A stretch of DNA of 64,000 nucleotides from a virus, in IMG/VR virus record IMGVR_UViG_3300028786_000007, positions 1 through 64,000 of that record; one strand, written 5' to 3'. Of the stretch, positions 5,101 to 22,020 are shown one piece after another. The notes below the pieces were generated by a model. That model saw nothing but the letters and a program-made list of their open reading frames with translations, was not told where the DNA came from and ran no database searches. Within the stretch, counting starts at the first letter, position 1; each line of letters begins with the position of its first letter. A program made the translations under genes and the position numbers.

Positions 5101-5293
5101 GCGGCAACTCAAGATACCCGAGCCCAAAGGCGGCTCTTCGGTCGCTTGGCCGGACAACTCCCGCTACAATTGGGCGAACCTGCCCGCCATCCGCGCGGTG
5201 AAGGGCGTGGGCCGGCCGCCGCTGGTCGCTGCGGCGCGCGCGGGCGTACTCTTCAAGAAGCTAAGACCCTCAGGACAAGGATTTACAGCATGA
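5090..5293 (+). CDS. Hypothetical protein
   Basis: GTG start; stop overlaps the next ATG (ATGA). Confidence 0.45.
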   Translation: MHHKRQLKIPEPKGGSSVAWPDNSRYNWANLPAIRAVKGVGRPPLVAAARAGVLFKKLRPSGQGFTA

Positions 5294-5940
5294 GAATTGA
5301 ACCGACCGTCGGCCGGGTCGTTTGGTACTATCCCGCCAATGGCGACAGCAATAAGCCTTGCGCGGCCCTCGTCGCCAACGTGCACGATGAAACCCATATT
5401 GCCGTCGGCTACCTCGACCATATTGGTCAGGCGCACTCCGCGAGCTTTGTGCCGTTGATCCAGGAAGGCGAGGCCCGCCCCTATGGGCGCGACCACTGCA
5501 CCTGGATGCCGTATCAGGTCGGGCAGGCCAAGAAGCATGCTGAGCCGGCCGCGGCGAGCCCGAGCGTCCTGAATCTCCCCTACCAGGAAACTGCTGCAGC
5601 GCTCTCGTCGAGCTCAGCCTTGCGCTTCGGCGACGTGATCGCGGCCCTGGAGCTCGGCTTCCGCGCGCGCCGGACCGGCTGGAACGGCCGCAATATGTGG
5701 ATCGCCTACTCGCCCGGCTCCGAATCGCTACCCGCGGAGAAGTTTTGGTCGGGCGCGAACCGCGAATATGCGGAGCGGCGCGGTGGCTATGCGCGGGTGC
5801 AGCCCTGCCTCACTATGTGCACGGCGGATGGCTCTATCCAGATGGGCTGGTTGGCTTCCCAGCGGGATATGCTCGCCACCGATTGGGAAGTGCTCCACGG
5901 CTGGACGGACGAGGACGAGCGGCCGGAGGTGCACCTGTGA
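5290..5940 (+). CDS. Two-domain protein: conserved phage PTVGRVVWYYP domain fused to a DUF2829 / Tad2-like (Thoeris anti-defence sponge) domain
   Basis: FGDVIAALELGFRARRTGWNG...GWLASQRDMLATDW matches the DUF2829 signature. Confidence 0.75.
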   Translation: MRIEPTVGRVVWYYPANGDSNKPCAALVANVHDETHIAVGYLDHIGQAHSASFVPLIQEGEARPYGRDHCTWMPYQVGQAKKHAEPAAASPSVLNLPYQETAAALSSSSALRFGDVIAALELGFRARRTGWNGRNMWIAYSPGSESLPAEKFWSGANREYAERRGGYARVQPCLTMCTADGSIQMGWLASQRDMLATDWEVLHGWTDEDERPEVHL

Positions 5941-8163: not shown

Positions 8164-8676
8164 ATGCTGCAGGAACTTACCCGTACAGCCGTTAAGGCTC
8201 CAGTTTCCAATAAAGATCTCGTCGAGCAGTATAACCGTCTGGCCAAGATGGTTGATGCTACGCCAGTCACGCGCTTCGCTTCTCGGGAAGTCGCCCTGAA
8301 GCGCTTGGAGCGGATCCAGGCTGAGGTCAAAGCGCGCTTCGTCACGACGCCGGAGCGTAAAAAGCGCCAGAAGGTGTTCAACTACCCGCCGCGCGACGAA
8401 CTTAAGGCATTGAAGCCGGGTACACTGCGTGCTGAGGCTCGCGACCTGCTTAAGGCCGGTGCAACGCTCGGTAAGGTGGAAGAGCTGATCGCGGATTGGG
8501 ATAAGCGCAACGGCGACAAGCCCTATCGCTTGGAGCCGCGTGCTTATGGCCTTGTGAGGCTGCTGCACACCTATATCGGCTATGCCCTCCGTGAGGAAGG
8601 CGAAGGCGACAATAAGATTATCTTCCTGATGGATACGAAGGAGTGGAATGCGTGGAGAGCCCAGAGAACGGCGTAA
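8164..8676 (+). CDS. Hypothetical basic protein
   Basis: Strong RBS AGGAGG, directly downstream of the promoter. Confidence 0.75.
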   Translation: MLQELTRTAVKAPVSNKDLVEQYNRLAKMVDATPVTRFASREVALKRLERIQAEVKARFVTTPERKKRQKVFNYPPRDELKALKPGTLRAEARDLLKAGATLGKVEELIADWDKRNGDKPYRLEPRAYGLVRLLHTYIGYALREEGEGDNKIIFLMDTKEWNAWRAQRTA

Positions 8677-9170
8677 CCTCCTCGGAAATAATTCCAGCAA
8701 AAGCCGATCACTTTGTGGTCGGTTTTTTGTTTTCTGAGGACGGAGAGAGTTTGTTGTTAATTGAGAAAAAGCGGCCGGCTTGGCAGGTTGGCTATCTTAA
8801 TGGCATTGGTGGGAAGATTTATCCTGGCGAGGCTCCGGTCGCCGCTATGGGGCGGGAGTGCATTGAGGAAGCCGGCGTGGACGTGGAGTGGTCTGAATTT
8901 GCCTGCGTTGAATATGGTGCCCACTTCTTGCATTTCTTTGCGGCGCGCGATGGTACAGCATTCCTGGATGCGCGGCAGCAAACGGATGAGCCCTTAGCGC
9001 GTGTGCGCTATTTATCGGTGCAGTACCCACAGAACATTTATGAACTATCGGTTATTCCGAACCTGAAATGGCTGATACCCCTAGCTCGGCACCACCTTTT
9101 CTATGAGAAGGTCACGTTGGCTCATGTCATTATGACGGGAGGGGGAAGTACAATAGCGAGGAAAATGTGA
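8643..9170 (+). CDS. Nudix hydrolase
   Basis: Nudix box GGKIYPGEAPVAAMGRECIEEAG; start uncertain. Confidence 0.85.
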   Translation: MECVESPENGVTSSEIIPAKADHFVVGFLFSEDGESLLLIEKKRPAWQVGYLNGIGGKIYPGEAPVAAMGRECIEEAGVDVEWSEFACVEYGAHFLHFFAARDGTAFLDARQQTDEPLARVRYLSVQYPQNIYELSVIPNLKWLIPLARHHLFYEKVTLAHVIMTGGGSTIARKM

Positions 9171-9985
9171 TACGCAAGCGAGAATACCGTGTAGTTGTGG
9201 AGGCCGTTATTCTCGCCCTACTATCAATCCTAATTGTGCACTTGTTCTTCGAGCGCTTTACCCCCACTGCCGATTGGCTCTGGCCGGCTATGGGCCTCAC
9301 TCTACTGATCATGGCCGGCGTCAGTGCCTATCAGGCTTGGCGACGCCGCATTATCCTGGCCGGCGATATTGGCCTGCTACAGGGCGCGACTTGGAACCTT
9401 GTGCTGCTTATGGAGAACTATGGCACGAAGTCCTCAGGCCGGCGCGCGGCCGGCCGGGCGAAGGTGCTAGAGCGCTTCGCGGTAGAGGGGGCCAAGGAAG
9501 TCGCCGCGGGCCGACCAATGCCTATGGGCGATACCGGCGCGCTCGACCTCACTACGCTCGGTTTTGAGCTCATTACCCGCAACGAGGAAGATGGCTCCAA
9601 GCACTGGCGGCGGGTGAACGGCATTCGTCGCGGGCTGTATTGCTACCTGGCATTGGTGGAATTGCAGAGCCCTGGCCTCGCCTATCGAGGCATGGTCGAA
9701 CACATGAAGACCCAGCGTAAGCTCGGCGACGGCGTGGACAATTTCCCGGAGTTAAGACGCCTGCTGGGCCTTCCCACGGAATGGCCGACCGACGACCTGC
9801 CGGAGTTTTGCGAGCGCATGGGTATCACTGTGGAACGGGAACGCGCCGTGCTGGAGGCCGTCGCTGCTGGAATGGCCGTCGCGTTTAAGGGGTTGCAATA
9901 CAAGCCTTGGCCAGAGGCGGGCGAACAAGAACAGGTTTATGTTGGTCGGGAGATATTGGCTGAGATGCGTGAATATATGAGGTAA
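9167..9985 (+). CDS. Hypothetical membrane protein (two N-terminal TM helices)
   Basis: Two hydrophobic stretches; GTGA overlap. Confidence 0.65.
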   Translation: MIRKREYRVVVEAVILALLSILIVHLFFERFTPTADWLWPAMGLTLLIMAGVSAYQAWRRRIILAGDIGLLQGATWNLVLLMENYGTKSSGRRAAGRAKVLERFAVEGAKEVAAGRPMPMGDTGALDLTTLGFELITRNEEDGSKHWRRVNGIRRGLYCYLALVELQSPGLAYRGMVEHMKTQRKLGDGVDNFPELRRLLGLPTEWPTDDLPEFCERMGITVERERAVLEAVAAGMAVAFKGLQYKPWPEAGEQEQVYVGREILAEMREYMR

Positions 9986-9987
9986 AA

Positions 9988-10191
9988 ATGAGCGATTTCC
10001 TGGCCAGTCTTGAGCCTCTCCTGAGACGGCGCTGCGAGGCTGTATTGCAAATTGACACGGCCCTGGCGCACCTCCCGCGCCACCAGCTCATCGCTGTTCT
10101 CACCAGTTATATCGACCTTGATCAGCTTGAAGAAGCCCTACCAACCATCTGCGGAAGCGATAATGCAAAATCACCAGCGCCTGAGCATTGA
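9988..10191 (+). CDS. Hypothetical protein
   Basis: RBS GAGG, packed ORF. Confidence 0.55.
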   Translation: MSDFLASLEPLLRRRCEAVLQIDTALAHLPRHQLIAVLTSYIDLDQLEEALPTICGSDNAKSPAPEH

Positions 10192-11059
10192 AGAATTCGG
10201 CAAAATCCTGATCCAGAGCAATGACCTCGACCCGGTCTATTGCGCGCTCTACACCATGATGGAGGGCGACGTTCTCAGCCAGGAACACCTCTCGCGGTGG
10301 ATCCTCGCCTATAGCTGCCTCTACCATTGCGGCGTGGCTAGCTACCTTAGCGAGTTCGAAGGCGAGGCGTTCTTTAAGGCGCTGATGGTAGCGGCCTGGA
10401 ACGAGGAGCCCTCGCCGGTCGGTGAGCGGTGGCCGCGCGGGCATGAGCGCCGGCACTGGCGTGGGGCTCAGGCGGTGGACAGCTGCAAGGCGCTTTGGGA
10501 CCGCTACCACAGAGAGCCTGAGCACTTCCTGGATTACGTGATATGGCAATATGCGGCCGACGGTGAGCGTGGCCACCCCACTACCTTCGCTGATATCTCT
10601 GAGCGAGTCCGCACCCACCGCGGCTTCGGAGGGTGGATTGCCTTCAAGCTGGCGGACATGATTGACCGGCTACAACTGCGTCGGGTCGAGTTCAATTATG
10701 ATGATGTCACCATCTACACAGATCCTGTCAAAGCTGCGGAACGTCTTGTACGGCAACGCAATGGTTTTCCCGAAACAGCTTCAGTAAAACCGGAAGCCGT
10801 GAAAGCAGTTTTTGAAGCTTTAGAAGAGCATTTCTCCAATTACCCAGCTCCACCGGTGGGCGACCGGCCAATTGGACTTCAGGAAGTCGAATCAATATTG
10901 TGCAAGTGGAAGTCCCACATGAACGGGCACTATCCGCTCTACAATGACATCCGGGAGATCCGGGAAGGGCTGCTGCCCTGGGCGGAAGTCAGTGAGGTGG
11001 CCGGCTTCTTCCGCGCCGCGATGCCCAAGTTGCCCGCCGAGAAGAAGGTGGCCGCATGA
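10163..11059 (+). CDS. Amino acid:DNA transferase (aGPT-Pplase2 / AADT family) for thymidine hypermodification
   Basis: NDLDPVY, WPRGHERRHWRG, FGGWIAFKLADM and QEVESILCKWKSH..GHY motifs recalled from M6/YuA-type enzymes; cluster context. Confidence 0.8.
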   Translation: MQNHQRLSIEEFGKILIQSNDLDPVYCALYTMMEGDVLSQEHLSRWILAYSCLYHCGVASYLSEFEGEAFFKALMVAAWNEEPSPVGERWPRGHERRHWRGAQAVDSCKALWDRYHREPEHFLDYVIWQYAADGERGHPTTFADISERVRTHRGFGGWIAFKLADMIDRLQLRRVEFNYDDVTIYTDPVKAAERLVRQRNGFPETASVKPEAVKAVFEALEEHFSNYPAPPVGDRPIGLQEVESILCKWKSHMNGHYPLYNDIREIREGLLPWAEVSEVAGFFRAAMPKLPAEKKVAA

Positions 11060-11673
11060 AACGCCAGAAGATATGCGGCGTGTATCGAATACGCTGTTGC
11101 ACTTCAGGATATGCATATATCGGAAGTGCGCTGGATATTGAGCAACGCCTTAAGCACCATCGCAGAACTCTCCAGGAAAATATCTGTGTTAACAAAGTGC
11201 TTCAATTTGCCTGGAATGTGTTCGGGGAAGGTAATTTTGCCTTTGAAATTGTAGAAACTTGCGAAAAAGAGCAGCTCCTGGATCGGGAGAGCTTCCACGC
11301 GGAACAAACTGAATTTCTCTTCAATCTAGGCAAAGTGGTACGCCGCCCGAAAGGCATGACCCCTGAAGGTCGTCTCCGTTGTTCTGAGGCGGCGAAGCGA
11401 GCACATAAAGAAGGTCGCCTTGGCACACCAACGTGGCGTGCAGCGACATGGGAAGGGCTTCCAGAGCGTGGCCGTAAACTATCGGCTGACCGCAAACCAC
11501 TATCCAAAGAACAACGCCAAGCTGCATCTGAACGCATGATTGCCATGCAAGTTGAGGGCAAAGTACCCCCTCGAACCTGGAGTGATTCAGAGCGCCAGAG
11601 GGTCAGGGAACAAGCGGAAGCTCAACGCAAAGAAGGTCGGCTGGGAAGTCGTTCCCATCGAGGAAGCAAATGA
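11056..11673 (+). CDS. Free-standing GIY-YIG homing endonuclease
   Basis: CGVYRI..YAYIGSA..QR..H, LQFAWNVFG..NFAFEIVE..RE..FN; basic NUMOD-like C-terminus. Confidence 0.85.
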   Translation: MKRQKICGVYRIRCCTSGYAYIGSALDIEQRLKHHRRTLQENICVNKVLQFAWNVFGEGNFAFEIVETCEKEQLLDRESFHAEQTEFLFNLGKVVRRPKGMTPEGRLRCSEAAKRAHKEGRLGTPTWRAATWEGLPERGRKLSADRKPLSKEQRQAASERMIAMQVEGKVPPRTWSDSERQRVREQAEAQRKEGRLGSRSHRGSK

Positions 11674-12515
11674 CCAATTTTGATACCATCGTTGTGGGAG
11701 CCGGCATCTTTGGTACCACTATTGGATTGTGGTTGCGCCGCCAAGGTCAAAGCGTGTTGATACTGGACGCGGAGAAGCCTCTCTCGGGCTCAGCTCCGGC
11801 AGCTTGCATTGTAAGACCCCAGTGGTTGGGCAAGATGTCTAAGAAGGAAATGGCCCAAGCTTTCTCCGTATTGGACGAGCTTTACGGCCTCCATGAGCTA
11901 GAGGCTCGTATTCTAGTTGCAGGCTTCACCAAGAGCATTTCCGTCTATTGGGTTGCACCACGTGCCATTCTCAAAGCAGGGCGTTTTGAGCCGGCCGAAG
12001 TTGTGGAAGTCGGTGTTGGTGAATCTCCTTGGGTTCGGTGCAGCGATGGTCGCATTATCCATGCCAGAAGCGTGGTGGTGGCTGCTGGCGTGTGGAGCTC
12101 GAAGTTATGCACAATCAATAACTTAACAGCTCAGGCTGGTGTGGCATTTACGTGGAAAACCGAAGACCCTGAGGATGGTCGCCCACGCATCGCTCCGTGG
12201 GCTCCATACCGGCAATTGGTGGCCCTGAACCGGGCACCGTATGAAACATGGGCGGGCGATGGCACTGCGCTAAAGCAGAGCTCACTGACCCCGGAACGTA
12301 TTGCGGCTTCTCGTGAGCGTTGTGCTAAATTTGTGAACATGCCCCCTGAGGATGCTACCGAGATTGTTGGTTTACGTCCTTACATTCGTGGCTTGAAAGA
12401 TCCATGCCTGGTCGAAGAGGTAATGCCGAACATCTTCGTCGCTAGCGGAGGCAGCAAGAACGGCACGGCCGGGGCCGGCTGGGCCGCGTATAAGATTGCT
12501 GAAGCAACGAATTGA
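11670..12515 (+). CDS. FAD-dependent oxidoreductase (DAO/glycine-oxidase-like; candidate glycinyl-thymine lyase)
   Basis: IVVGAGIFG Rossmann motif, VVVAAGVWS, GLRP, GGSKNG; lies next to the AADT. Confidence 0.85.
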   Translation: MTNFDTIVVGAGIFGTTIGLWLRRQGQSVLILDAEKPLSGSAPAACIVRPQWLGKMSKKEMAQAFSVLDELYGLHELEARILVAGFTKSISVYWVAPRAILKAGRFEPAEVVEVGVGESPWVRCSDGRIIHARSVVVAAGVWSSKLCTINNLTAQAGVAFTWKTEDPEDGRPRIAPWAPYRQLVALNRAPYETWAGDGTALKQSSLTPERIAASRERCAKFVNMPPEDATEIVGLRPYIRGLKDPCLVEEVMPNIFVASGGSKNGTAGAGWAAYKIAEATN

Positions 12516-12525
12516 GGCTGAGGCG

Positions 12526-13494
12526 ATGGCGTTTTCCCACGAGGGCTGGACATACGGCGCGGAGCACGAGCTCGCCGACATCGACCGGCGCAAGCCGCTA
12601 CCGGCCGGCTATAAGTGGGACGACCGCGATGTCACGATCGTCAATAGCAACGGCATCGCCAATGACCCCAAGGGCCGCCTCTATGGTTATGGTGGTGAGA
12701 TCAACACGCCGGCCACCAATTCAATCTCTGGCCAGATGGGGTGCCTGCTGCAGATCCTGGAGTGGGACCTTAGTGCTCGTGTGAATTACCGCAGCAACCT
12801 ACATTTGCATATCCGGGTTCCAGGCCTCAAAGAAGATCTCCGCGCGCTGAAGCGCCTTGCACTCTACAACGCGCATTGGCTTCCGATTGTGCTTCCGATC
12901 ATTGAGCCCATTCCCTACCCGAATGGCGACGACTACGGCACGGAGCTCTCCTGGCAGGGTGCGCTGCGCCGCTATAAGCGCCGTAAGCGGTCCCACCAGA
13001 CGGTCTTGACCCCGCAGCGCACAGCGAAGATGATCGAGGCGCACACCGTGGAGGAGTTTTTCCGCGCGGAGGTGCCCGTGGACAGTAAGGGCAACCCGAT
13101 GTGGCATGCCCAGGCGCGCGCCGCAGTCAATATCCGCCAGCTGCGAGAAACTGAGACAATCGAGTTCCGCCACTTTTCGGGCACGCTGGACATCAACGAG
13201 CTCAGCCACTGCTTCGATTGGTGCGAGCACTACCTGCTGTGCGCGCTTTGCCCAACTTGGGGACTGCGGCCCTCCGCCTTAGACCCCTATCAGACCTTCA
13301 AGCCACACAAGCCGTTCCAGGGCGTGTTGGCCGGCTTCCCGGAGTTCCCGCCCTACGACCATGCCCTGGAAATCCGCTACCGGGCGACCTGCCATGACGG
13401 GTCGCTGGAGCAAGAGCAGATCGCTAGGAATATCAAAGCGATAGAAGAAAACAGTTTTGACGATGAAGCTTGGGAGAGATCACTAAAATGGTGA
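12526..13494 (+). CDS. Putative amidoligase (COOH-NH2 ligase, glutamine-synthetase/GCS fold)
   Basis: TYGAEHE, GGEINT, LHLHI, AVN and TIEFRHFSGTLD motifs; start may be 12496. Confidence 0.75.
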   Translation: MAFSHEGWTYGAEHELADIDRRKPLPAGYKWDDRDVTIVNSNGIANDPKGRLYGYGGEINTPATNSISGQMGCLLQILEWDLSARVNYRSNLHLHIRVPGLKEDLRALKRLALYNAHWLPIVLPIIEPIPYPNGDDYGTELSWQGALRRYKRRKRSHQTVLTPQRTAKMIEAHTVEEFFRAEVPVDSKGNPMWHAQARAAVNIRQLRETETIEFRHFSGTLDINELSHCFDWCEHYLLCALCPTWGLRPSALDPYQTFKPHKPFQGVLAGFPEFPPYDHALEIRYRATCHDGSLEQEQIARNIKAIEENSFDDEAWERSLKW

Positions 13495-13775
13495 ATAACG
13501 CAAGAATAGGCGAATTTCGAATGATGGCGGCTCAGGTCTTTTATGCCGAAGACGCCGATGGCTTTCTCCGCCGTTGGGAGCCCACTCCGGAGACGTTGCG
13601 CGGCTCCGAAATGGCGCGCGCGATTCGCGGCGGCACGGCTATCAATGACACGCCAACCCTGATCGAATTTCTGGTCGATCGGCTGGTCAACCTTCATGGC
13701 GAAAGCCTTGACGTGGATTATATCCGGGCGGCAAAGGAACGTGCGGCAATGTTGCGCGACTCGTTGCCAAAATGA
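13488..13775 (+). CDS. Hypothetical protein
   Basis: Packed ORF, ATGA overlap with the next gene. Confidence 0.6.
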   Translation: MVNNARIGEFRMMAAQVFYAEDADGFLRRWEPTPETLRGSEMARAIRGGTAINDTPTLIEFLVDRLVNLHGESLDVDYIRAAKERAAMLRDSLPK

Positions 13776-14116
13776 CCGTTTACGTCGACGACATGTACGC
13801 CATGCCGATGGGGCGCTACCGCGGCATGAAGATGTCGCACATGATCGCCGATACGGAAGCGGAGCTGCACGCCATGGCGGATCAGATTGGCGTGAAGCGA
13901 CGCTGGTTTCAGCAGGTTCCGAGCGGCAACCATTACGACATTGCCATGAGTAAGCGCAGTCGAGCAGTGGCGGCCGGCGCGGTGGAGATCACCATGCGGC
14001 AGTGCGCGGCGATTTGCGCGTGTCAGCGCCGCGGTGAGGCTTACTCCTCGCCGGAGGACGCTTGGGAGAAGCACCGCGCGCGGCTTAGCGCGATAATCAA
14101 TGCGCCGGAGCAATAA
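13772..14116 (+). CDS. DUF4031-family protein
   Basis: MTVYVDD..MSHMIADTEAELHAMADQIGVKRRWFQ..HYDI..R.RAVAAGAVEI. Confidence 0.85.
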   Translation: MTVYVDDMYAMPMGRYRGMKMSHMIADTEAELHAMADQIGVKRRWFQQVPSGNHYDIAMSKRSRAVAAGAVEITMRQCAAICACQRRGEAYSSPEDAWEKHRARLSAIINAPEQ

Positions 14117-14184: not shown

Positions 14185-14742
14185 ATGACAGTTCTGGTAC
14201 TTTGCCACGGAGCAATCTGCCGTTCACCTATGGCCGTTGCAGTGATGAAACGGGCAGGTCTTACGGATGTTCATTGCGCAGGCTTCAAGCCCGCGGACGA
14301 AAGGTCCAAACCTTCCCCGAAGAAGGTGCGCGACTGGGCGATGGAAAATGAGGGTCTGGACCTCTCATTGCATCGTTCCAAGTCTGTGACCGTGGACATG
14401 CTACGGCGGGCGGAGATTATCCTCTACATGGACAGCGGCCAGATGGGTCGGCTGGAAACGCTGTGGGAGGAAAACGGCCTCGCCGCTGAGCTTGGCCCGG
14501 TTTATGCGCGCGCCCGGCCGCTGGCCGCTTACCTGACCACCCCCCTGGGCCGCATCGGCGACCCGATGTTCCAGAAGCCGGAAACCCAGGAGTTTATGAC
14601 CATTATGGGTCAGCTCGTGGAAGCTTCCACGCGCTTCGCTCGCGAATGGCAGGAACTCAAGAAGGGCGACGCGCAAGTCGCCGGCCTGCAGGCGGCGGCC
14701 ACCGCCAGCACGGACGGTGCTCCTGAGGAGGCCGCGGCGTAA
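14185..14742 (+). CDS. Low-molecular-weight protein tyrosine phosphatase / ArsC-like phosphatase
   Basis: VLVLCHGAICRSPMA (CX5RS P-loop), HRSK, IGDP general-acid motif. Confidence 0.85.
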   Translation: MTVLVLCHGAICRSPMAVAVMKRAGLTDVHCAGFKPADERSKPSPKKVRDWAMENEGLDLSLHRSKSVTVDMLRRAEIILYMDSGQMGRLETLWEENGLAAELGPVYARARPLAAYLTTPLGRIGDPMFQKPETQEFMTIMGQLVEASTRFAREWQELKKGDAQVAGLQAAATASTDGAPEEAAA

Positions 14743-15347
14743 TGCCCCAATTGGTAAATATACGGGGCACTAGCGGCTCCGGTAAGTCCACAGCGGTCCG
14801 CTCCATTATGGAGCGGGCTGATAGCGTTGACCCCTTCCTGGCCGACCCGGCCGTGTTCGGCAAAAAGCGCAAGAACCCACTGTTCTATCTGTGTCAGTTC
14901 AAGGGTCATCCGGACGTGGCGGTGCTCGGCCACTATGGCGCAGATTGCGGCGGACTGGACACATTACCTTCTTATGCTTTCATCACAGAACTGATCCGGA
15001 CTCGCTACAGCGAAGGTCAACACGTGATCTTCGAAGGGCTATTGCTCAGCCATGACACCAAGCAGGTGCTCGGGCTGTGGGACTGGCTCGGTAAGAAGGA
15101 TTTCACCGTCCTGGAGCTTACCGAAACGGTGGAGACCTGCGTGCAGTCTGTCAGGGACCGGCGCGCGCGGAAGGGCCAACCTCCGGAGTTCAATACGAAC
15201 AACACCGTGCGTCGGCACGGCGAGGTTATACGGGCGTGTAGTAAGCTCGAGGCGGCCGGCGTACCGGTGCGGCGCATTAGCCGGGCGGAATGCGTTCCGA
15301 CCGTCCTGGAGCTGCTGGAGCTGCGTAAGGAGGCGGTGGCGGCGTAA
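14742..15347 (+). CDS. P-loop nucleotide kinase associated with hmdU modification clusters
   Basis: NIRGTSGSGKST Walker A; GGLDT; VIFEGLL; lid R..RR. Confidence 0.8.
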   Translation: MPQLVNIRGTSGSGKSTAVRSIMERADSVDPFLADPAVFGKKRKNPLFYLCQFKGHPDVAVLGHYGADCGGLDTLPSYAFITELIRTRYSEGQHVIFEGLLLSHDTKQVLGLWDWLGKKDFTVLELTETVETCVQSVRDRRARKGQPPEFNTNNTVRRHGEVIRACSKLEAAGVPVRRISRAECVPTVLELLELRKEAVAA

Positions 15348-15619: not shown

Positions 15620-15872
15620 GCTAGCCCTCGCGCTTCTTCTCCTCGGCGCTGGGCCCAGTCATGCCCAGCGCCTCGACGGGCCGGAGATCGGCGTGGATTG
15701 CCAATATGGTCGCGGCGTACTGAAACTGTGCCAAGCCGGGTGCCGTGCCGAGTCTGATTCAGCGCGAACATGGCGACGGGTAAATAACGAAGAGCGCGTG
15801 CAGCGGTTGGCACACTGCCTAGATGAATGTTGGGGTATCCGTAAAGCCTTGGAAGAATGCCCCAAGAGGTGA
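15600..15872 (+). CDS. Small secreted Cys-rich protein
   Basis: Signal peptide LALALLLLGAGPSHA; six Cys. Confidence 0.55.
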   Translation: MTKSTNKLALALLLLGAGPSHAQRLDGPEIGVDCQYGRGVLKLCQAGCRAESDSARTWRRVNNEERVQRLAHCLDECWGIRKALEECPKR

Positions 15873-16789
15873 GCCCCGTGGCCCGCAATAAGCACGCTAT
15901 TGTAACGGAAGCGCACCTGCAGCGCTTCTTCGATTTCTCCCGTGAGCGTTACCACATTATGCTGCGGCGGCGGTTAGGGCAACCGGCCCCCTGGACCACC
16001 GACCCGGTGCTGGCCATGTGGCGGTTCTGCAACGTGTTCCGCGAGGACGACCGCACCACGACTTGGTTCCGGGAAAATATCCGCAACGAGCTGAGCATGG
16101 AACCGCGCGTGGTCATGGCCACGATCGCTTTCCGTGCCTTCAATCGCGTTGAGACCGGCGAGATTCTCAAGCCCTTCCTGCTCAACGAAGACTATAATTT
16201 CCCGGAATGGCGGCGACTGCTTACTGAACGCGCAGAAGCTAATTTCCCTGTGGTTACAGGGGCTTACATGATAAAAACAGCGCCGAAACTAAATAAAATA
16301 GACGGCGTGCTGTATCAGCTCAGTGAGGCCAAAATGCGCGAAGCCTCCATCATGGACTGGATCCGTAATAACGATTGGGGCTTCTGCACTCAGGAAAGCC
16401 TGTGGGAACTGCTCTGCACTTTCCCCTATATTGGTCAATTTACCGCCAATGAAGTGGTGGTCGACCTTACCCACACTCACATTCTCCGCGCCGCGCGAGA
16501 CCTGGATACCTGGACCAACCCCGGCCCAGGCTGCTCCCTGGGCATTGGCATGCTACTCCACGGCGATGGGCAGGTCTACCGCCGCCATGCTCAAGCAGAT
16601 CGTCGGGTAATGACTGGCATTATGACTGAGTTCCTGTATGCTTCCCGGGAGGAGCGCTATTGGCCGCAGGCTTGGCCCCGTTGGACGCTCCATACGGTGG
16701 AATGGGGTTTTTGTGAGCTGAGTAAGTACCTTCGCGGCCTAGCCGGACAAAAGCTCAAAAGGAAGTACCGTGCCTCGGAACTTGCGTAG
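15869..16789 (+). CDS. aGPT-Pplase1 family protein (5-hmdU DNA kinase family)
   Basis: ERYHI..RR..GQPAPWTTDPVL..WRFCNVFREDDRTT, TGAYMI, IGQFTANEVVVD, GPG, CELSKY; start could be 15857. Confidence 0.85.
   Translation: MSPVARNKHAIVTEAHLQRFFDFSRERYHIMLRRRLGQPAPWTTDPVLAMWRFCNVFREDDRTTTWFRENIRNELSMEPRVVMATIAFRAFNRVETGEILKPFLLNEDYNFPEWRRLLTERAEANFPVVTGAYMIKTAPKLNKIDGVLYQLSEAKMREASIMDWIRNNDWGFCTQESLWELLCTFPYIGQFTANEVVVDLTHTHILRAARDLDTWTNPGPGCSLGIGMLLHGDGQVYRRHAQADRRVMTGIMTEFLYASREERYWPQAWPRWTLHTVEWGFCELSKYLRGLAGQKLKRKYRASELA
16766..16774 (+). repeat. 9-bp direct repeat TACCGTGCC (left flank of the endonuclease gene)
   Basis: Identical to 17484-17492; contains the GTG start codon. Confidence 0.7.
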
Positions 16790-17513
16790 TGGGAAGGTCT
16801 ATTCCTACCTGCTCGTGCGCCCAAACGGCATTCCCTTCTATGCGGGCGTGGGCCGTTGTAGCCGATACAAGGCTAAGAAAGCGAATAAGTGGGCTGAGCG
16901 TATCCGCGCGAAGATTGAGCGTGAGGGTGGCCGAGTTCTCTATATAGTTTTTGACCAATCTTCTTGGGATGAAGCGTGTACTCATGAGAAGGAACTCATT
17001 GCAAAATATGGCCGCCAAGATCTAGGAACTGGCGTTCTGGTGAATGCTACGGATGGTGGGGAGGGTGTGCCCGGCCGTATCATGACCAAGGATCAGTTGG
17101 CACATTTGGGCAGTCAACAACGCGGTAAAAAGTGGGCACCCGATGACCCGCGTCGAGAGCTAATTTCTCGTCAATTCAAGGGACGTAAGCCCAATCACTC
17201 TCCTGAGCTAAAGCAACAACTTTCAGAAAGAATGAAGAAGTTCAATGAGGGCAACGCTGAGCGCAATAGGGCAAGAAAAGGCATCTCGCTAAGTGAGGAA
17301 CGACGGGCGCAGATTAAGGCCACAGCTGCAGCCCAACCCCCAATGAGCGAGGAACGCAAAGAAGCGTTTCGCCAGATGACCATCGCTCGTAATAGGGCAA
17401 ATAAAGGAAAGCCTCAAAGTGAGGAGCGTAAGGCTCAGTCACGAGAAACCCTTGCCCGAGCTCTTAAAATTCGATGGGAACGCTACCGTGCCAACAACCC
17501 TACCCATTCGTAA
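16770..17513 (+). CDS. GIY-YIG-like homing endonuclease with NUMOD3-type repeats
   Basis: YSYLLVRPNGIPFYAGVG..R..E.ELIAKYGR.DLGTG.LVNATDGGEG; repeated SEERK/SEERR motifs. Confidence 0.85.
   Translation: MPRNLRSGKVYSYLLVRPNGIPFYAGVGRCSRYKAKKANKWAERIRAKIEREGGRVLYIVFDQSSWDEACTHEKELIAKYGRQDLGTGVLVNATDGGEGVPGRIMTKDQLAHLGSQQRGKKWAPDDPRRELISRQFKGRKPNHSPELKQQLSERMKKFNEGNAERNRARKGISLSEERRAQIKATAAAQPPMSEERKEAFRQMTIARNRANKGKPQSEERKAQSRETLARALKIRWERYRANNPTHS
17484..17492 (+). repeat. 9-bp direct repeat TACCGTGCC (right flank)
   Basis: Identical to 16766-16774; contains the likely GTG start of the hydroxymethylase. Confidence 0.7.
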
Positions 17514-18570
17514 CGTACACGCAGCTCTGCCTGCCTTTCTACTCACCCTCCTCGAAACTAGCATCTCTGAAGAAAGCCGCAACGGCCCCGTTTTCGTGTA
17601 CCCATACCCGCTGACGACTCTCTATGAGCGTCCTTGGGAACGAGTGATATTTTGGGAAGAGCGGGACGCTAACCCATTTTTTCACTTCCAGGAATCACTT
17701 TGGATGCTAGCCGGGAGGAATGATGTTGATTTTCCAGCGCATTACGCGAAGCAGCTACGCACTTATAGTGACGACGGTAAGACTTTGCATGGAGCTTATG
17801 GCCATAGGTGGCGCCATCATTTTGCTGACAAAGACCAGCTCTCCTGGGCTATTAGCCGGCTTAGGGACAATCCGTCCGACCGACGCACCGTAATCTCAAT
17901 GTGGGATCCAATCATTGATGCTGATATGGCGGACAAGGGTGGGAAAGATACTCCCTGCAATACGCAGATCTATCTTAACGTGCGTGACGGCCATTTGTGT
18001 ATGCAAGTGAATTGTCGATCGAACGATGCGTTGCTCGGCGCGTTCGGAGCCAACGCAGTGCACATGGCCTTTTTGCATGAATATCTTGCGGCCCATATCG
18101 GAGTTCCGATGGGCTGGTATGCTCAAAACAGCTTCAACATCCATGTCTACGAAGGTTTCTATAAGACGGTCATGAATGACCGCAAGGCTAGGGTCGAACA
18201 GCAGAGCCTGCGGTTCGCTATGACGCAGCCTGGAGAGCATCGCTGGAACCCGTACAGCGATTTACCCGGCCTGCAGCTCCACTCTCTCGTCAATTCCCCC
18301 CAAGCTACTTGGGATTCGGAGTTAGCCATTTTCCTGGCGGGCGGTTCCAGTAAGGCTGATGGCCTAGACGACCCATTTTTCACCAAAGTCGCTGTTCCAA
18401 TTAGGGACGCCCACGCAGCATACCGCAAGAGAGATCATGACCTCGCCAACGAAGTTATCTCCAAATGTGCAGCCGCCGACTGGCGCAGAGGATGCACCGA
18501 CTGGCTCACCCGACGTGCAGAGCAACGCAATACTCCGAAGCATGCTGAGCCGGATAGCGCTCACCCGTAA
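17488..18570 (+). CDS. Thymidylate-synthase-fold dUMP hydroxymethyltransferase
   Basis: SRNG, NPFFH..E.LW.LAGRND, YSDDG..HGAYG.RWR, PCN catalytic Cys, RSND..G...N (Asn indicates dUMP specificity), HVY. Confidence 0.85.
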   Translation: MPTTLPIRNVHAALPAFLLTLLETSISEESRNGPVFVYPYPLTTLYERPWERVIFWEERDANPFFHFQESLWMLAGRNDVDFPAHYAKQLRTYSDDGKTLHGAYGHRWRHHFADKDQLSWAISRLRDNPSDRRTVISMWDPIIDADMADKGGKDTPCNTQIYLNVRDGHLCMQVNCRSNDALLGAFGANAVHMAFLHEYLAAHIGVPMGWYAQNSFNIHVYEGFYKTVMNDRKARVEQQSLRFAMTQPGEHRWNPYSDLPGLQLHSLVNSPQATWDSELAIFLAGGSSKADGLDDPFFTKVAVPIRDAHAAYRKRDHDLANEVISKCAAADWRRGCTDWLTRRAEQRNTPKHAEPDSAHP

Positions 18571-19084
18571 TGGTGGCCACGTCAAGCGCTGGCACACCAA
18601 GCAGATTATCGGCGAACAGACGGTCGGACACCACTCCTTTGGGGTGGTGTCGCTACTTCTGATCCTGCACCCCAACCCGAGCCTCGATTTGCTGAGGGCA
18701 GCGATGTGGCACGATATGGCGGAGCAGGTCACCGGTGACGTGCCCAGCCCTATCCTGCGTTCCGAGCATGAATTCGGCACCTGCCACGACAAGATCGAGG
18801 CGGAGTTCATGCGCAATAAGCTCTTCGTGCGCATGGACCACCTCCCCTTCAACGACCACAGTTGGCTCTGGGCTTGCGATAAGCTGGAGTGTTTATTGTT
18901 CTGCCGGGAGCAAGTTGCGCTTGGTAATAAGGGTTTTGAAAATATCTGCGGATTACTTACCGAGTGGTTTCTGAAAACTGACGCAGTACCTGGGCCAGTA
19001 ATGGCCATTGTCTATAAGCTTAGCCAAAGTTATTGCGGCTATTCTTTGGAGGATGTGCTTGAAGTTATGGGGACATCAACTTGA
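18542..19084 (+). CDS. HD-domain 5'-deoxynucleotidase (YfbR-like)
   Basis: VKRWH, QTVGHHS, HDMAE..TGDVPSP, CDKLE. Confidence 0.85.
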   Translation: MLSRIALTRNGGHVKRWHTKQIIGEQTVGHHSFGVVSLLLILHPNPSLDLLRAAMWHDMAEQVTGDVPSPILRSEHEFGTCHDKIEAEFMRNKLFVRMDHLPFNDHSWLWACDKLECLLFCREQVALGNKGFENICGLLTEWFLKTDAVPGPVMAIVYKLSQSYCGYSLEDVLEVMGTST

Positions 19085-19500
19085 CTGACTTTCACGAAAA
19101 ACATCCCCAGGTCGGCGGAAATCATTACGCCAAAGGCGGAGACCTTCAGCATTGGGACCTGATTGAGCGCGGAAGCATCGGCTACCTGGAAGGCTGCGCC
19201 ACGAAGTATATTGCACGGTGGCGCGACAAGGGGGGGCTGCAAGACCTCAAGAAGGCCAAGCATTACGTAGAGAAGTTGATTGACATGCGGTCCAAGGCCG
19301 GCCGCATGGCGCGCGGTGAGGCTCTGCCAGAGGATCTGGAGCGCTTTTTTGCTACTTATGGGATGGGTGATATGGAGCGCGAGGTTATTCGGAAGCTGTG
19401 CTCCAATTGGAGCCGGGTGGATCTGTTCTGGGTGCTTGGTGCACTCGAAGTGATTATTGACAAGGAAGAAAATGGCCCTCAGCAAAGCCCAGCAACTTAA
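19081..19500 (+). CDS. DUF3310 (T7 gp1.7-like nucleotide kinase) domain protein
   Basis: QVGGNHY..G...KYIARWRDKGGLQDLKKA.HY. Confidence 0.85.
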   Translation: MTDFHEKHPQVGGNHYAKGGDLQHWDLIERGSIGYLEGCATKYIARWRDKGGLQDLKKAKHYVEKLIDMRSKAGRMARGEALPEDLERFFATYGMGDMEREVIRKLCSNWSRVDLFWVLGALEVIIDKEENGPQQSPAT

Positions 19501-21463
19501 GAAGGGCTCCACCCTTCAATTGAGCCTTTTCGCGCCGGAGAGTGTTTGGTCACCTCCGGCGCTCAGCATGCTCCCTAGCTGGAAAGGGGCGAAGCGTGTA
19601 GCGGTCGACGTAGAGACGAAGGATCCGGACCTGCGGGAGCTCGGGCCGGGCGTGCGCCGGCCGAGCACCTCCCATATCGCCGGTTACAGTTTCGCGATCG
19701 ACGATGGCCCGGCCTATTACATGCCGGTGGCGCACCTCGGCGGCGATAACGTCGACAACCCGGATCAGGCCTGGCAATACCTCGCCGACCAAGCCAAGGA
19801 CTTTGACGGGGAGATTGTCGGTCAAAACCTCGGCTATGACCTGGATTGGCTGGCGGAGGCGCGGCGCGGTAAGCCGGCGATCGTGTTCCGGCGGGCGCGG
19901 GCGTTCCGCGATACGATGGTCGCCGCGGCGCTGATCTATGAGCTGCACATGAGCTATAGCCTCGGTGCGATTGCTGAGCGCTACGGTATGCCCGGCAAAA
20001 ATGAGGAGCTTCTTCGGCAGGCCGCCGCGGAGTTTAACGTAGACCCCAAGGGCGGTCTCTGGCGGCTCCCAGCGCGTTACGTGGGGCCTTACGGCGAGGG
20101 CGATGCCCACTTGCCCCTGCGCATCCTCGAGCGCCAGGAGAAGGAGATCGCTGAGCAGGATTTGGGCCGGATTTGGGATATTGAATCGGCGTTGCTGCCG
20201 GTGCTGGTCAAGATGCGCCGCCGCGGCGTGCGGATCGACTTCGACCGGCTGGCCCGTATCGAGGACTGGACCCTCCAGGAGGAGCGCAAAGCCCTGGACA
20301 TCGTCCGGTTTGAAACCGGCTACATGATTGAGGTGGGCGACGTTTGGAAGCCTACCGCGCTGGCTCCGGCCCTGGAAGCGGTCGGCATCAGTGTGGGGCG
20401 CACGGCCAAGACCGCTTCGCCGCAGATCGATAAGGCGCTGCTCTCCAGTTCGGACCACCCGGTCTTGAACGCTATCGCCTGGGCGCGCAAGGTCAATAAG
20501 CTCCGCACCACCTTTGCCCAGTCGGTGCGCACCCATGCCGTCAACGGCCGTATCCACACCACCTTGAACCAGCTCTTCGGCGAACGGGAGGACGGCGGGC
20601 TGCGCGGCGCGCGGTTCGGGCGCATGAGCTGTGAGAACCCGAATTTGCAGCAGCAACCTTCCCGGGATGAGTTCGCCCAAGAGTGGCGCGCCATCTACAT
20701 CCCGGAAGAGGGTATGCAGTGGGGCTGCATGGACTTTTCGCAGCAGGAGCCGCGGTGGTGCGCGCACTTCGCCAATGCGATGAAGCTGGAAGGCGCGGCG
20801 GCGATGGTCGCGCGCTTCAACGAAGACCTCAAGACCGACGTTTATGACCTCGTCGCCTCCATTACCGGCCTGAAGCGCAAGGAAGCCAAGATCGTGTATC
20901 TTGGCATTATGTATGGTGAGGGCGGCTACAAGCTCTGCATGGACCTCGGTTACGAGACCGCGGTCAAGGTGGTGCTGAAGGGCAAGTGGTCCGCGGAGAA
21001 CTCCCAGGAGGGCTATGACGCGCTCCGCGGCGGCGGCCGGAAAGTACAGGCGGCTGGCCCGGAAGGACAAGCGGTTATCGATCAGTTCGACAACAACGCG
21101 CCATTTGTGCGGAAATTGAGCAAAGCCTGCTCGACTGTTGCCGAGCAACGTGGCTACATCAAGACTATTCTCGGCCGGCGTTGCCGCTTTCCGAAGGACG
21201 ACCACGGCAATTACGACTGGAGTTACAAGGCACTCAATAGGCTCATCCAAGGTAGCTCAGGAGACCAAGTTAAAGCTGCAATGGTAGAGGTGGATAAGGC
21301 CGGTCACCATTTACAACTCCAGGTACATGATGAGTTGGATGGCTCAATCAAAGACCGTGCTGAGGGTGAGGCCATGGCTGAGATCATGCAGAACGTCGTC
21401 CAGATGAGCGTGCCGTTCCGAGTTGATGTAGAGGTTGGCCCTAACTGGGGTGAGATTAAATGA
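19472..21463 (+). CDS. polA: Family A DNA polymerase with 3'-5' exonuclease
   Basis: DVET, N.GYD (exonuclease); GRMSCENPNLQQ, DFSQQEPR, RKEAK...LG.MYG, LNRLIQGS, QVHDE. Confidence 0.95.
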   Translation: MALSKAQQLKKGSTLQLSLFAPESVWSPPALSMLPSWKGAKRVAVDVETKDPDLRELGPGVRRPSTSHIAGYSFAIDDGPAYYMPVAHLGGDNVDNPDQAWQYLADQAKDFDGEIVGQNLGYDLDWLAEARRGKPAIVFRRARAFRDTMVAAALIYELHMSYSLGAIAERYGMPGKNEELLRQAAAEFNVDPKGGLWRLPARYVGPYGEGDAHLPLRILERQEKEIAEQDLGRIWDIESALLPVLVKMRRRGVRIDFDRLARIEDWTLQEERKALDIVRFETGYMIEVGDVWKPTALAPALEAVGISVGRTAKTASPQIDKALLSSSDHPVLNAIAWARKVNKLRTTFAQSVRTHAVNGRIHTTLNQLFGEREDGGLRGARFGRMSCENPNLQQQPSRDEFAQEWRAIYIPEEGMQWGCMDFSQQEPRWCAHFANAMKLEGAAAMVARFNEDLKTDVYDLVASITGLKRKEAKIVYLGIMYGEGGYKLCMDLGYETAVKVVLKGKWSAENSQEGYDALRGGGRKVQAAGPEGQAVIDQFDNNAPFVRKLSKACSTVAEQRGYIKTILGRRCRFPKDDHGNYDWSYKALNRLIQGSSGDQVKAAMVEVDKAGHHLQLQVHDELDGSIKDRAEGEAMAEIMQNVVQMSVPFRVDVEVGPNWGEIK

Positions 21464-22020
21464 ACTTTCTTGACATCAAGCCCCTACCCCCAACGCCCGA
21501 AGAGATGGCCCGCCAACGGAAGTGGGACTTCCGCATGCTGTCTATGGCGCGGCTGGTTTCTATGTGGTCACAAGATCCCTCAACGCGCGTGGGAGCGGTG
21601 ATTACCCGGCGCGACCACACGGTACTCTCATTGGGCTATAACGGTTTTCCGCGCGGGTGTAGCGACGCTCCGGAGCTTTACGAGGACCGGGAACGGAAGT
21701 ATGCGCGCGTCGTTCACGCTGAGCTCAATGCCATACTCGCCGCGGCGGAACGGCCGATAGGGTGCACGCTTTACGTCTGGCCGCCCGCGCTACGGCCGGG
21801 CACATGCGCAAATTGCGCTTCAGCGATTATCCAGTCTGGCATTTCGCGCGTCGTAAGCGTGGAGTCAAATGCCATCGGGTTTAACGAACGGTGGGAGAAG
21901 TCTTACCGGGAGGCGGCTCAGATGTACGCAGAAGCGCTTATCCCCTTTGACAGTTACCCATTAGCGGAGTTCGAAGAGTGGATGAAGGCAATGTCCGCAC
22001 CACCGTTCTCAGCGCCCTGA
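21460..22020 (+). CDS. dCMP deaminase
   Basis: SQDPSTRVGAVI, GYNGFPRG, HAELNAI, CANC. Confidence 0.93.
   Translation: MNFLDIKPLPPTPEEMARQRKWDFRMLSMARLVSMWSQDPSTRVGAVITRRDHTVLSLGYNGFPRGCSDAPELYEDRERKYARVVHAELNAILAAAERPIGCTLYVWPPALRPGTCANCASAIIQSGISRVVSVESNAIGFNERWEKSYREAAQMYAEALIPFDSYPLAEFEEWMKAMSAPPFSAP

What the first reader, a model, noticed from the sequence alone, without database searches (positions are those of the whole stretch)
11670..13494. Candidate new DNA base: an amidoligase occupies the tailoring slot after AADT and the FAD enzyme
Known (PaMx11 pathway, from memory): AADT installs glycine on phospho-hmdU, an FAD enzyme trims it to 5-aminomethyl-dU, and a GNAT acetylates the amine. 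Seen here: AADT, (endonuclease), FAD oxidoreductase, then a GS/GCS-fold COOH-NH2 ligase (E.E, E, H.H, EFR motifs) instead of the GNAT. Inference: ATP-dependent ligation of a carboxylate such as the glutamate gamma-carboxyl onto 5-aminomethyl-dU in DNA, giving an amide-linked hypermodified thymidine. I know of no characterised example, and it would make this a DNA-acting amidoligase.
Basis: partly seen in the sequence, partly recalled or inferred. Interest (0 to 1): 0.88.

Follow-up and report, generated by a model that had tools for sequence, protein, structure and literature searches.

The report
Amide ligase tailoring phage thymine hypermodification
An uncultured phage has the known enzymes that turn thymine in its DNA into 5-aminomethyl-uracil, but where its relative PaMx11 has an acetyltransferase it has an uncharacterised ATP-dependent amide ligase paired with a small phosphatase, so it probably makes a DNA base nobody has identified.

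Summary
The genes run AADT (10163-11059), a GIY-YIG homing endonuclease, an FAD lyase (11670-12515), then a 322-aa protein (12526-13494). That protein has a glutamine-synthetase/glutamate-cysteine-ligase fold and invariant ExE, E, HxH and EFR motifs. The AADT and the FAD enzyme match the solved PaMx11 gp46 and gp47, and the DNA- and substrate-binding residues reported for those structures are conserved. The block is syntenic with PaMx11, with the ligase in the acetyltransferase slot.

Among 36 FAD-lyase loci, 22 carry the ligase, 6 a GNAT, 8 neither and none both. Close relatives of the ligase also follow M6-type radical-SAM/PLP genes (5-aminoethyl-dU). In two complete phages without any AADT they sit beside QueF (7-aminomethyl-7-deazaguanine). 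The shared feature is a primary amine on a base, which supports acylation of that amine. A low-molecular-weight phosphatase accompanies the ligase in most ligase loci and in none of the others. It is fused to the ligase in six protein clusters, and its role is unexplained. The acyl donor is unknown, and glutamate is only an analogy.

The link between amidoligases and these clusters was published in 2021 with the function left open. This scan has noted the same module in at least 18 other genomes.

The parts
8164..8676 (+). Conserved cluster gene of unknown function, homologue of PaMx11 gp45
   Evidence: tblastn hits fall inside PaMx11 gp45 (35% identity) and upstream of the AADT in 10+ loci. 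No Pfam family.
8643..9170 (+). NUDIX hydrolase
   Evidence: Pfam PF00293 E 1.1e-8. Shared only with the closest loci L003/L004.
9167..9985 (+). Unknown 272-aa protein upstream of the AADT
   Evidence: No Pfam, PHROG or NCBIfam hit. The Atlas gave no lead. Homologues in L003, L004 and L013.
10163..11059 (+). Amino acid:DNA transferase (AADT, clade 2), probable glycine transferase
   Evidence: PF18724 E 5.5e-19. 8z2m (PaMx11 gp46) E 8e-82 and 25qc E 3e-84. In the printed alignment to 25qc, the motifs that hold the reported gp46 residues are kept (DLDP Asp, W-x3-K, E-S/T-x2-C). This was read through a second structure, so it is an inference. Start ATG 10163.
11056..11673 (+). GIY-YIG homing endonuclease inserted between AADT and FAD genes
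   Evidence: PF01541 E 5.5e-8, phrog_314 E 1.8e-16. Absent at this place in PaMx11 and most related loci.
11670..12515 (+). Flavin-dependent N-alpha-glycinylthymidine lyase (PaMx11 gp47 orthologue), which makes 5-aminomethyl-dU
   Evidence: 8z2o E 4.4e-53 over the full length. W51, Y180, Q182, K202, R210, R242, Y244 and K268 are all conserved in the printed alignment (residue roles from PMC11472151).
12526..13494 (+). GS/GCS-fold carboxylate-amine ligase (divergent Amidoligase_2), the candidate tailoring enzyme
   Evidence: 791 homologues. 459 clusters at 50% identity.
13470..13775 (+). Small ORF (101 aa), unknown, possibly not a gene
   Evidence: No family and no homologue in related loci.
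13772..14116 (+). DUF4031 protein
   Evidence: PF13223 E 1.4e-25. Found next to the ligase only in L003/L004.
14185..14742 (+). Low-molecular-weight phosphatase, partner of the ligase
   Evidence: PF01451 E 2e-12. The C-x5-R-S and D-P motifs are kept. It accompanies 17 of 22 ligase loci and 0 of 14 other FAD-lyase loci. It is fused to the ligase in L021 and in six cluster representatives.
14742..15347 (+). [quoted passage not shown]
   Evidence: AAA_33 E 7.5e-6, just below Pfam's own cut-off (26.7 against 27 bits). Syntenic with and 40% identical to PaMx11 gp49.
15857..16789 (+). 5-hmdU DNA kinase helical-domain protein (PaMx11 gp50-like)
   Evidence: PF18723 E 1.2e-42.
17419..18570 (+). Thymidylate-synthase-fold enzyme, probable dUMP hydroxymethylase
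   Evidence: PF00303 E 5.7e-21. Syntenic with PaMx11 gp51. The exact start is uncertain.
18437..19084 (+). HD-domain nucleotidase
   Evidence: PF12917 E 1.8e-10.
19457..21463 (+). Family A DNA polymerase
   Evidence: PF00476 E 4.6e-49.
21460..22020 (+). dCMP deaminase
   Evidence: PF00383 E 2.2e-17.

Best explanation
The gene at 12526-13494 encodes an ATP-dependent carboxylate-amine ligase of the glutamine-synthetase/glutamate-cysteine-ligase fold. It is the last tailoring enzyme of a PaMx11-type thymidine hypermodification pathway.

Steps supported by orthology to characterised enzymes:
- A dUMP hydroxymethylase and the polymerase put 5-hmdU into DNA.
- The kinase makes 5-phosphomethyl-dU.
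- The AADT adds glycine.
- The FAD lyase trims the glycine adduct to 5-aminomethyl-dU.

Inferred step: the ligase phosphorylates a small carboxylate with ATP, and the aminomethyl group of the base in DNA attacks the acyl phosphate. The product is an N-acyl-5-aminomethyl-dU, in place of the N-acetyl base of PaMx11.

The acyl donor is unknown. A glutamate gamma-carboxyl is the analogy from the superfamily. However, the ligase comes with, and is often fused to, a low-molecular-weight phosphatase. This suggests that the donor or an intermediate carries a phosphate that is then removed.
For: Fold and motifs.

Supply of 5-NmdU: the AADT and the FAD lyase match the solved PaMx11 gp46 and gp47. The gp47 residues that hold the flipped base and the glycine carboxylate are conserved.

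Same slot: PaMx11 runs gp45-AADT-FAD-GNAT-kinase-gp50-TS-HD, and the window runs the same order with the ligase where the GNAT is.

Exclusivity: of 36 informative FAD-lyase loci, 22 have the ligase, 6 a GNAT, 8 neither and 0 both. My hypergeometric figure for no overlap is about 0.0015, not corrected for relatedness.

Amine as the common factor, within one well-supported ligase clade (99/96):
- 20 members follow FAD lyases.
- 4 follow orthologues of M6 gp53 rSAM and gp52 PLP decarboxylase. The product of that route, 5-aminoethyl-dU, has an amine and no carboxylate.
- 2 lie in complete phage genomes with no AADT, one gene away from QueF and together with QueC and a QueE-like rSAM.

DNA as substrate: natural fusions join ParB_N, an N6/N4 DNA methylase, a PLP enzyme and the ligase, and another joins the ligase to a P-loop kinase. 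A decarboxylase fused to the ligase fits consecutive steps.
Against: There is no biochemical evidence of any kind.

The sister clade of the ligase (40 of 70 loci) has no FAD lyase. There the ligase sits next to a class II glutamine amidotransferase with an intact N-terminal Cys, and one representative is a fusion of the two. That arrangement reads most naturally as carboxylate plus ammonia. The family's constant substrate could therefore be a base-borne carboxylate rather than a base-borne amine.

In every clade-A context a base-borne carboxylate also exists as an upstream intermediate: N-alpha-GlyT, C-alpha-GlyT or 7-carboxy-7-deazaguanine.

The phosphatase partner is not explained by simple glutamylation. 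The protein is not basic overall (pI 6.3).
Confidence: 0.5

Rival explanations
1. The ligase activates a base-borne carboxylate (the glycine carboxyl of N-alpha-glycinylthymidine) and joins it to ammonia or a free amine. The product is an amidated glycinyl-thymidine. The FAD lyase would then compete for the same intermediate or serve a second modification.
For: In the sister clade the ligase is directly preceded by a class II glutamine amidotransferase with the catalytic N-terminal Cys. One representative is a GATase-ligase fusion. This is the layout of a two-part amidotransferase. The catalytic motifs are identical in both clades.
Against: This does not explain why the ligase and the GNAT exclude each other in the slot after the FAD lyase. 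It does not explain why close relatives follow a decarboxylase or QueF, whose products have no carboxylate. It does not explain a PLP enzyme fused to the ligase, since the two would then compete. Arg242 of the lyase, which is modelled to bind the glycine carboxylate, is conserved here.
Confidence: 0.15
2. The ligase does not act on DNA. It makes a small molecule, for example an unusual amino-acid amide or gamma-glutamyl amine used as the AADT nucleophile, or it modifies a protein, as PafA does with Pup.
For: All characterised members of the fold act on small molecules or proteins (matches). Other phage amidoligase modules are thought to act on peptides or cell wall (PMC11945000).
Against: Of the 82 related loci sampled, every one with enough flanking DNA shows base-modification genes next to the ligase. 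Genomes with no AADT still keep the ligase next to QueF, so it cannot be only an AADT-donor synthase. Fusions to a DNA methylase, ParB and a 5-hmdU-kinase-type P-loop domain point to DNA.
Confidence: 0.12
3. The GS-fold protein and the phosphatase are an N-kinase/phosphatase pair, like the arginine kinase McsB and the LMW-phosphatase-family arginine phosphatase YwlE. They would put a phosphoramidate on the base amine and remove it again, with no amide made.
For: The phosphatase is tied to the ligase and fused to it in six representatives. Guanidino kinases and McsB appear as weak structural matches (Z 3.6-4.2). The McsB/YwlE parallel is from my own knowledge.
Against: The best structural matches and the motif set are those of the ligases (YbdK, GCS, GS, PafA), not the kinases. 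A fused kinase and phosphatase with opposite effects has no evident use in making a stable virion base.
Confidence: 0.05

Closest known systems
Pseudomonas phage PaMx11 5-acetylaminomethyl-dU pathway (gp46 glycine:DNA transferase, gp47 flavin-dependent lyase, gp48 GNAT, gp49/gp50 kinase; PMC8989533, PMC11472151)
   Same: Same gene order. The AADT and the lyase are clear orthologues with conserved key residues. The kinase, helical protein, TS-like enzyme and HD enzyme all follow in the same order.
   Different: No GNAT. Its slot holds a GS-fold ligase plus an LMW phosphatase, here separated by a small ORF and a DUF4031 gene. A homing endonuclease splits AADT from the lyase. The phage backbone is unrelated: only the AADT gene gives a DNA-level match.
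Metavirome thymidine-hypermodification contigs with 'amidoligase' and 'glutaminotransferase' Pfam matches (Lee et al. 2021, PMC8989533), and TET/JBP clusters with GATase, kinase and AADT (PMC13229309)
   Same: This is the same gene family in the same kind of cluster. The published note that such genes co-occur with 5-HMUDK and AADT covers this window.
   Different: The papers leave the function open. As far as I could search, they do not report the exclusivity with the GNAT, the phosphatase partner, the rSAM/PLP and QueF contexts, or the fusions.
Gamma-glutamyl-amine ligases of the GS superfamily (glutamine synthetase, GCS/YbdK, gamma-glutamylmethylamide synthetase, 1-naphthylamine GS, Pup ligase PafA)
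   Same: Same fold (Z 8.2-9.8). By my reading it has the same metal/ATP motif set. These enzymes keep one carboxylate substrate and vary the amine, and PafA takes a macromolecular amine.
   Different: Only 9-15% identity. At 322 aa it is much smaller, and it has a conserved basic helix (RRYKRRKRSH, residues 148-157). It has no known substrate. None of the known members acts on nucleic acid.
Pseudomonas phage M6 5-aminoethyl-dU pathway (gp51-gp54)
   Same: Four ligase loci carry clear orthologues of gp52 and gp53 (44-65% identity) plus an AADT and the kinase.
   Different: M6 itself has no ligase. The window uses the FAD route, not the rSAM/PLP route.
LUZ24/PA11-type phage module (ATP-grasp, amidoligase, COOH-NH2 ligase, amidotransferase, GGCT)
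   Same: Also phage-encoded amidoligases of unknown product.
   Different: The genes and their context are different, and the module is thought to modify peptidoglycan or peptides. It is not linked to base-modification genes.

Membership tests
GS/GCS-fold carboxylate-amine ligases (Pfam Amidoligase_2, PF12224) | Glutamine-synthetase-like catalytic fold | tested here: met
   AF2 model with pLDDT 94. The 19 best of 48,161 chains are all GS/GCS/YbdK/PafA/Dop at Z 5.6-9.8, over 167-249 aligned residues at rmsd 3.6-7.0. The next match is unrelated at Z 4.2. Foldseek agrees.
GS/GCS-fold carboxylate-amine ligases (Pfam Amidoligase_2, PF12224) | Score above the Pfam gathering threshold | tested here: inconclusive
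   The window protein scores 15 bits against a cut-off of 22 (E 0.023, C-terminal 42 residues only). Relatives pass: L021 23.6 bits and P0122 31.1 bits, and about 20 of 120 homologues carry a precomputed hit.
GS/GCS-fold carboxylate-amine ligases (Pfam Amidoligase_2, PF12224) | Acidic/His/Arg motif set for metal and ATP binding (ExE, E, HxH, ExR; the motif definition is from my memory of Iyer et al. 2009) | tested here: met
   E13, E15, E58, H93, H95, E213 and R215 are invariant in 30 homologues. The motifs are recognisable in clades A and B and in the fused forms, with a few substitutions in the most divergent members.
GS/GCS-fold carboxylate-amine ligases (Pfam Amidoligase_2, PF12224) | ATP-dependent amide bond formation | not testable with these tools
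   Needs an enzyme assay.
PaMx11-type 5-NmdU pathway | Clade 2 AADT with the glycine-binding Trp/Lys and the catalytic Cys | tested here: met
   8z2m E 8e-82. The W-x3-K, E-S-x2-C and DLDP motifs are conserved in the printed alignment to the related chain 25qc (residue roles). Residue numbers were mapped by motif, not by direct alignment to gp46.
PaMx11-type 5-NmdU pathway | Flavin-dependent lyase with the base-cage and carboxylate-binding residues | tested here: met
   W51, Y180, Q182, K202, R210, R242, Y244 and K268 are all conserved.
PaMx11-type 5-NmdU pathway | 5-hmdU supply and activation (TS-like hydroxymethylase, P-loop kinase, helical kinase domain) | tested here: met
   PF00303 and PF18723 pass; the P-loop AAA_33 match is just under Pfam's cut-off. 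Order as in PaMx11. Hydroxymethylase rather than methylase specificity was not tested.
PaMx11-type 5-NmdU pathway | GNAT acetyltransferase (gp48) as the last step | tested here: not met
   No gp48 homologue in the 100.5-kb record (the record is 76% complete). No GNAT lies in the slot.
Low-molecular-weight phosphatases (PF01451) | C-x5-R-(S/T) phosphate loop and D-P general acid | tested here: met
   CHGAICRS and DP are present in the window protein and conserved in homologues.

The most novel reading that the evidence does not exclude
The ligase-phosphatase pair is a portable cassette that acylates any primary alkylamine displayed on a base in phage DNA: 5-aminomethyl-dU, 5-aminoethyl-dU and 7-aminomethyl-7-deazaguanine. 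It would then create a family of amide-linked hypermodified thymines and guanines. It would also be the first glutamine-synthetase-fold ligase that works on nucleic acid.
Probability: 0.4. Interest if true: 0.85.

Novelty: new variant of a known kind. Interest (0 to 1): 0.6.

Why it matters
Phage DNA hypermodifications block restriction enzymes and other host nucleases, and they have given useful enzymes for DNA labelling and sequencing. The known thymidine pathways end in amines or an acetyl-amine. An ATP-driven ligase step would allow much larger and more varied groups to be attached by an amide bond. The family is large: 459 clusters at 50% identity, almost all from uncultured phages. It appears behind three different amine-forming routes, so one assay could explain many orphan clusters. 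The link to QueF suggests that guanine-derived bases may be decorated in the same way, which I did not find in the literature searched. The finding is directly testable: PaMx11 gp46 and gp47 already make the proposed substrate in vitro, and phage Simon appears to be an isolate with the module.

Tried and rejected
- PHROGs and NCBIfam gave nothing for the ligase.
- A sequence profile against the PDB gave only chance hits to phosphoglucose isomerase.
- The search for related loci with the single FAD protein found nothing. An alignment was needed.
- The Atlas gave no lead for the 272-aa protein at 9167-9985.
- The Pfam TGT model found no DpdA-like gene in the three QueF-linked records. DpdA is divergent, so this shows nothing.
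- Iyer et al. 2013 (NAR 41:7635), which may discuss these ligases, is not held.
- The Carin-5 and alpha-dapT papers do not bear on the ligase.
- The phosphatase is unlikely to clear left-over 5-phosphomethyl-dU. It is absent from all 14 FAD-lyase loci without the ligase, and present in QueF-type genomes that have no base kinase.
- The ligase cannot be only a synthase for the AADT nucleophile, because genomes without an AADT keep it.
Full report
**What is in the window.** The window is the first 64 kb of a 100.5-kb uncultured-virus record, about 76% complete. The + strand from about 8.1 to 22 kb is one co-oriented block:
- a PaMx11-gp45-like gene, a NUDIX hydrolase and an unknown 272-aa gene
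- AADT (10163-11059), a GIY-YIG homing endonuclease, and an FAD oxidoreductase (11670-12515)
- the candidate ligase (12526-13494)
- a small ORF, DUF4031, and an LMW phosphatase (14185-14742)
- a P-loop kinase and the 5-hmdU-kinase helical protein
- a TS-like enzyme, an HD nucleotidase, DUF3310, PolA and a dCMP deaminase

Two starts need moving. The AADT begins at ATG 10163. The ligase most likely begins at ATG 12526, not TTG 12496.

**The upstream pathway.** The AADT matches the solved PaMx11 gp46 glycinyltransferase at E 8e-82. The FAD enzyme matches PaMx11 gp47 over its whole length at E 4e-53. The structure paper names Trp51, Tyr180, Gln182, Lys202, Arg210, Arg242, Tyr244 and Lys268 of gp47 as the residues that hold the flipped base, the DNA and the glycine carboxylate (PMC11472151). 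All eight are conserved in the printed alignment. The motifs that hold the glycine-binding Trp/Lys pair and the catalytic Cys of gp46 are also kept. I read this through the alignment to the related structure 25qc. PaMx11 gp46 to gp48 were shown biochemically to make N-alpha-glycinylthymidine, then 5-aminomethyl-dU, then 5-acetylaminomethyl-dU (PMC8989533). Production of 5-aminomethyl-dU in this phage's DNA is therefore a well-founded inference from orthology.

**The ligase.**
- *Sequence families.* Pfam gives only a sub-threshold Amidoligase_2 hit. PHROGs and NCBIfam give nothing.
- *Family size.* There are 791 homologues in the 90% identity collection and 459 clusters at 50% identity, nearly all metagenomic.
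- *Conservation.* Thirty homologues share 56 invariant positions.
- *Fold.* An AlphaFold model (pLDDT 94, pTM 0.91) matches only glutamine synthetases, glutamate-cysteine ligases, YbdK, PafA and Dop at the top of an all-against-all structural search. These matches have Z 5.6-9.8, then the list drops to Z 4.2. Foldseek agrees.

The protein is a small, divergent carboxylate-amine ligase, and its catalytic residues are intact.

**Is it in the GNAT slot?** PaMx11 reads gp45, AADT, FAD, GNAT, kinase, gp50, TS, HD. The window reads the same, with the ligase directly after the FAD gene.

I collected FAD-lyase loci from IMG/VR with an alignment, and added PaMx11 and phage Simon. Of 36 informative loci:

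| Gene after the FAD lyase | Loci | With the LMW phosphatase |
|---|---|---|
| Ligase | 22 | 17 |
| PaMx11-type GNAT | 6 | 0 |
| Neither | 8 | 0 |
| Both | 0 | – |

My hypergeometric figure for no overlap is about 0.0015. Many of these loci are related, so it is only a rough guide. I did not check it, so the exclusivity may hold only for the FAD-lyase type.

**What the wider family shows.** Eighty IMG/VR loci and two phage records encode relatives. A tree of 70 distinct ligases has two main clades.

*Clade A* (29 rows, including the window) contains three contexts:
- Twenty ligases sit next to FAD lyases.
- Four sit next to clear orthologues of M6 gp53 (rSAM isomerase, 46-65% identity) and gp52 (PLP decarboxylase, 44-59%).
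- Two lie in complete phage genomes with terminal repeats (109 and 111 kb). These have no AADT at all but encode QueC, a QueE-like radical SAM enzyme and QueF. The order there is QueF, one small gene, ligase, phosphatase.

A distant homologue in Vibrio phage 2.275.O also sits directly upstream of QueF, QueC and FolE.

The three routes end in 5-aminomethyl-dU, 5-aminoethyl-dU and 7-aminomethyl-7-deazaguanine. What they share is a primary alkylamine on the major-groove edge of a base. It also widens the idea beyond thymine.

*Clade B* (40 rows) lies in T4-like phages. The order there is TET/JBP dioxygenase, class II glutamine amidotransferase, ligase, a divergent AADT, and a P-loop kinase. There is no FAD lyase and usually no phosphatase. 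The amidotransferase keeps its N-terminal catalytic Cys. One cluster representative is a GATase-ligase fusion, although a single case could be a read-through. This layout suggests carboxylate plus ammonia. It is the main reason I keep the rival in which the family's constant substrate is a base-borne carboxylate.

**Fusions.** Among representatives no more than 50% identical to each other, local searches with my own profile and queries found:
- six ligase-phosphatase fusions, plus locus L021
- one ligase fused to a 5-hmdU-kinase-type P-loop domain
- two proteins that join a DNA methylase, a PLP enzyme of the M6 gp52 type and the ligase, one of them with ParB_N as well

Fusion to DNA-acting domains argues for DNA as the substrate. 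A decarboxylase fused to the ligase fits consecutive steps better than competing ones.

**The phosphatase.** It has the C-x5-R-S loop and the D-P motif of active LMW phosphatases. It is tied to the ligase and not to the kinase/AADT chemistry. It also occurs with the ligase in QueF-type genomes, where no base is phosphorylated. Removing left-over 5-phosphomethyl-dU is therefore an unlikely role. I cannot explain it. It may remove a phosphate carried by the acyl donor, or clear a phosphorylated side product. This weakens the specific guess of plain glutamylation.

**What is known already.** Lee et al. [quoted passage not shown] The 2026 T-dioxygenase paper lists GATases, kinases and AADTs but not the ligase. 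Full-text searches found no paper that characterises the ligase, its product, its link to QueF or its phosphatase partner. This scan has already noted the same ligase-phosphatase module in at least 18 other genomes, with similar readings. I reached my reading before seeing those notes.

**Verdict.** The cluster is a new variant of a known kind of pathway. The enzyme family is uncharacterised, the product is unknown and probably a new base, but the association itself is published. My confidence that the ligase acylates the DNA-borne amine is about 0.5. That the donor is glutamate is much less certain.

Noticed in passing
L005:9234-12280 and L020:8898-12766 (complete IMG/VR phage genomes G001, G002): A ligase-phosphatase pair 48-49% identical to the window's lies one gene from QueF, next to a QueE-like radical SAM gene. 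These genomes also have QueC and ThyX but no AADT. This suggests an acylated 7-aminomethyl-7-deazaguanine, which I did not find in the literature searched.
   Followed up: partly
window 14185-14742; L021:9659-11338; proteins P0133, P0138, P0142, P0154, P0159, P0247: The LMW phosphatase is specific to ligase-bearing clusters and is repeatedly fused to the C-terminus of the ligase. Its chemical role is unexplained.
   Followed up: partly
proteins P0124 (866 aa) and P0125 (1121 aa, a Loktanella MAG): Multi-domain proteins join an N6/N4 DNA methylase, an M6-gp52-like PLP enzyme and the ligase. P0125 also has an N-terminal ParB domain. In these proteins the ligase's basic helix is lost.
   Followed up: partly
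window 11056-11673: A GIY-YIG homing endonuclease gene is wedged between the AADT and the FAD lyase, with 4-base overlaps at both ends. The two genes abut directly in PaMx11.
   Followed up: partly
window 5146-5940: A protein with a C-terminal Tad2-like (Thoeris anti-defence 2) domain (Pfam E 2e-18) and an unassigned N-terminal half.
   Followed up: no
window 3869-4636: A phage-encoded outer-membrane beta-barrel protein (OMP_b-brl, E 4e-7).
   Followed up: no
window 37341-46493: A single 3050-aa ORF of the size of the virion RNA polymerases of N4-like phages. Not examined.
   Followed up: no
L099, L101, L106, L107, L108, L110, L111, L113: Eight FAD-lyase clusters have neither a GNAT nor the ligase after the lyase. 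These phages may stop at 5-aminomethyl-dU or use another, unrecognised tailoring enzyme.
   Followed up: no
protein P0128 (549 aa); protein P0248 (523 aa): P0128 is a ligase fused to a 5-hmdU-kinase-type P-loop domain. P0248 is a class II amidotransferase fused to the ligase. Each is a single representative and could be a read-through.
   Followed up: partly
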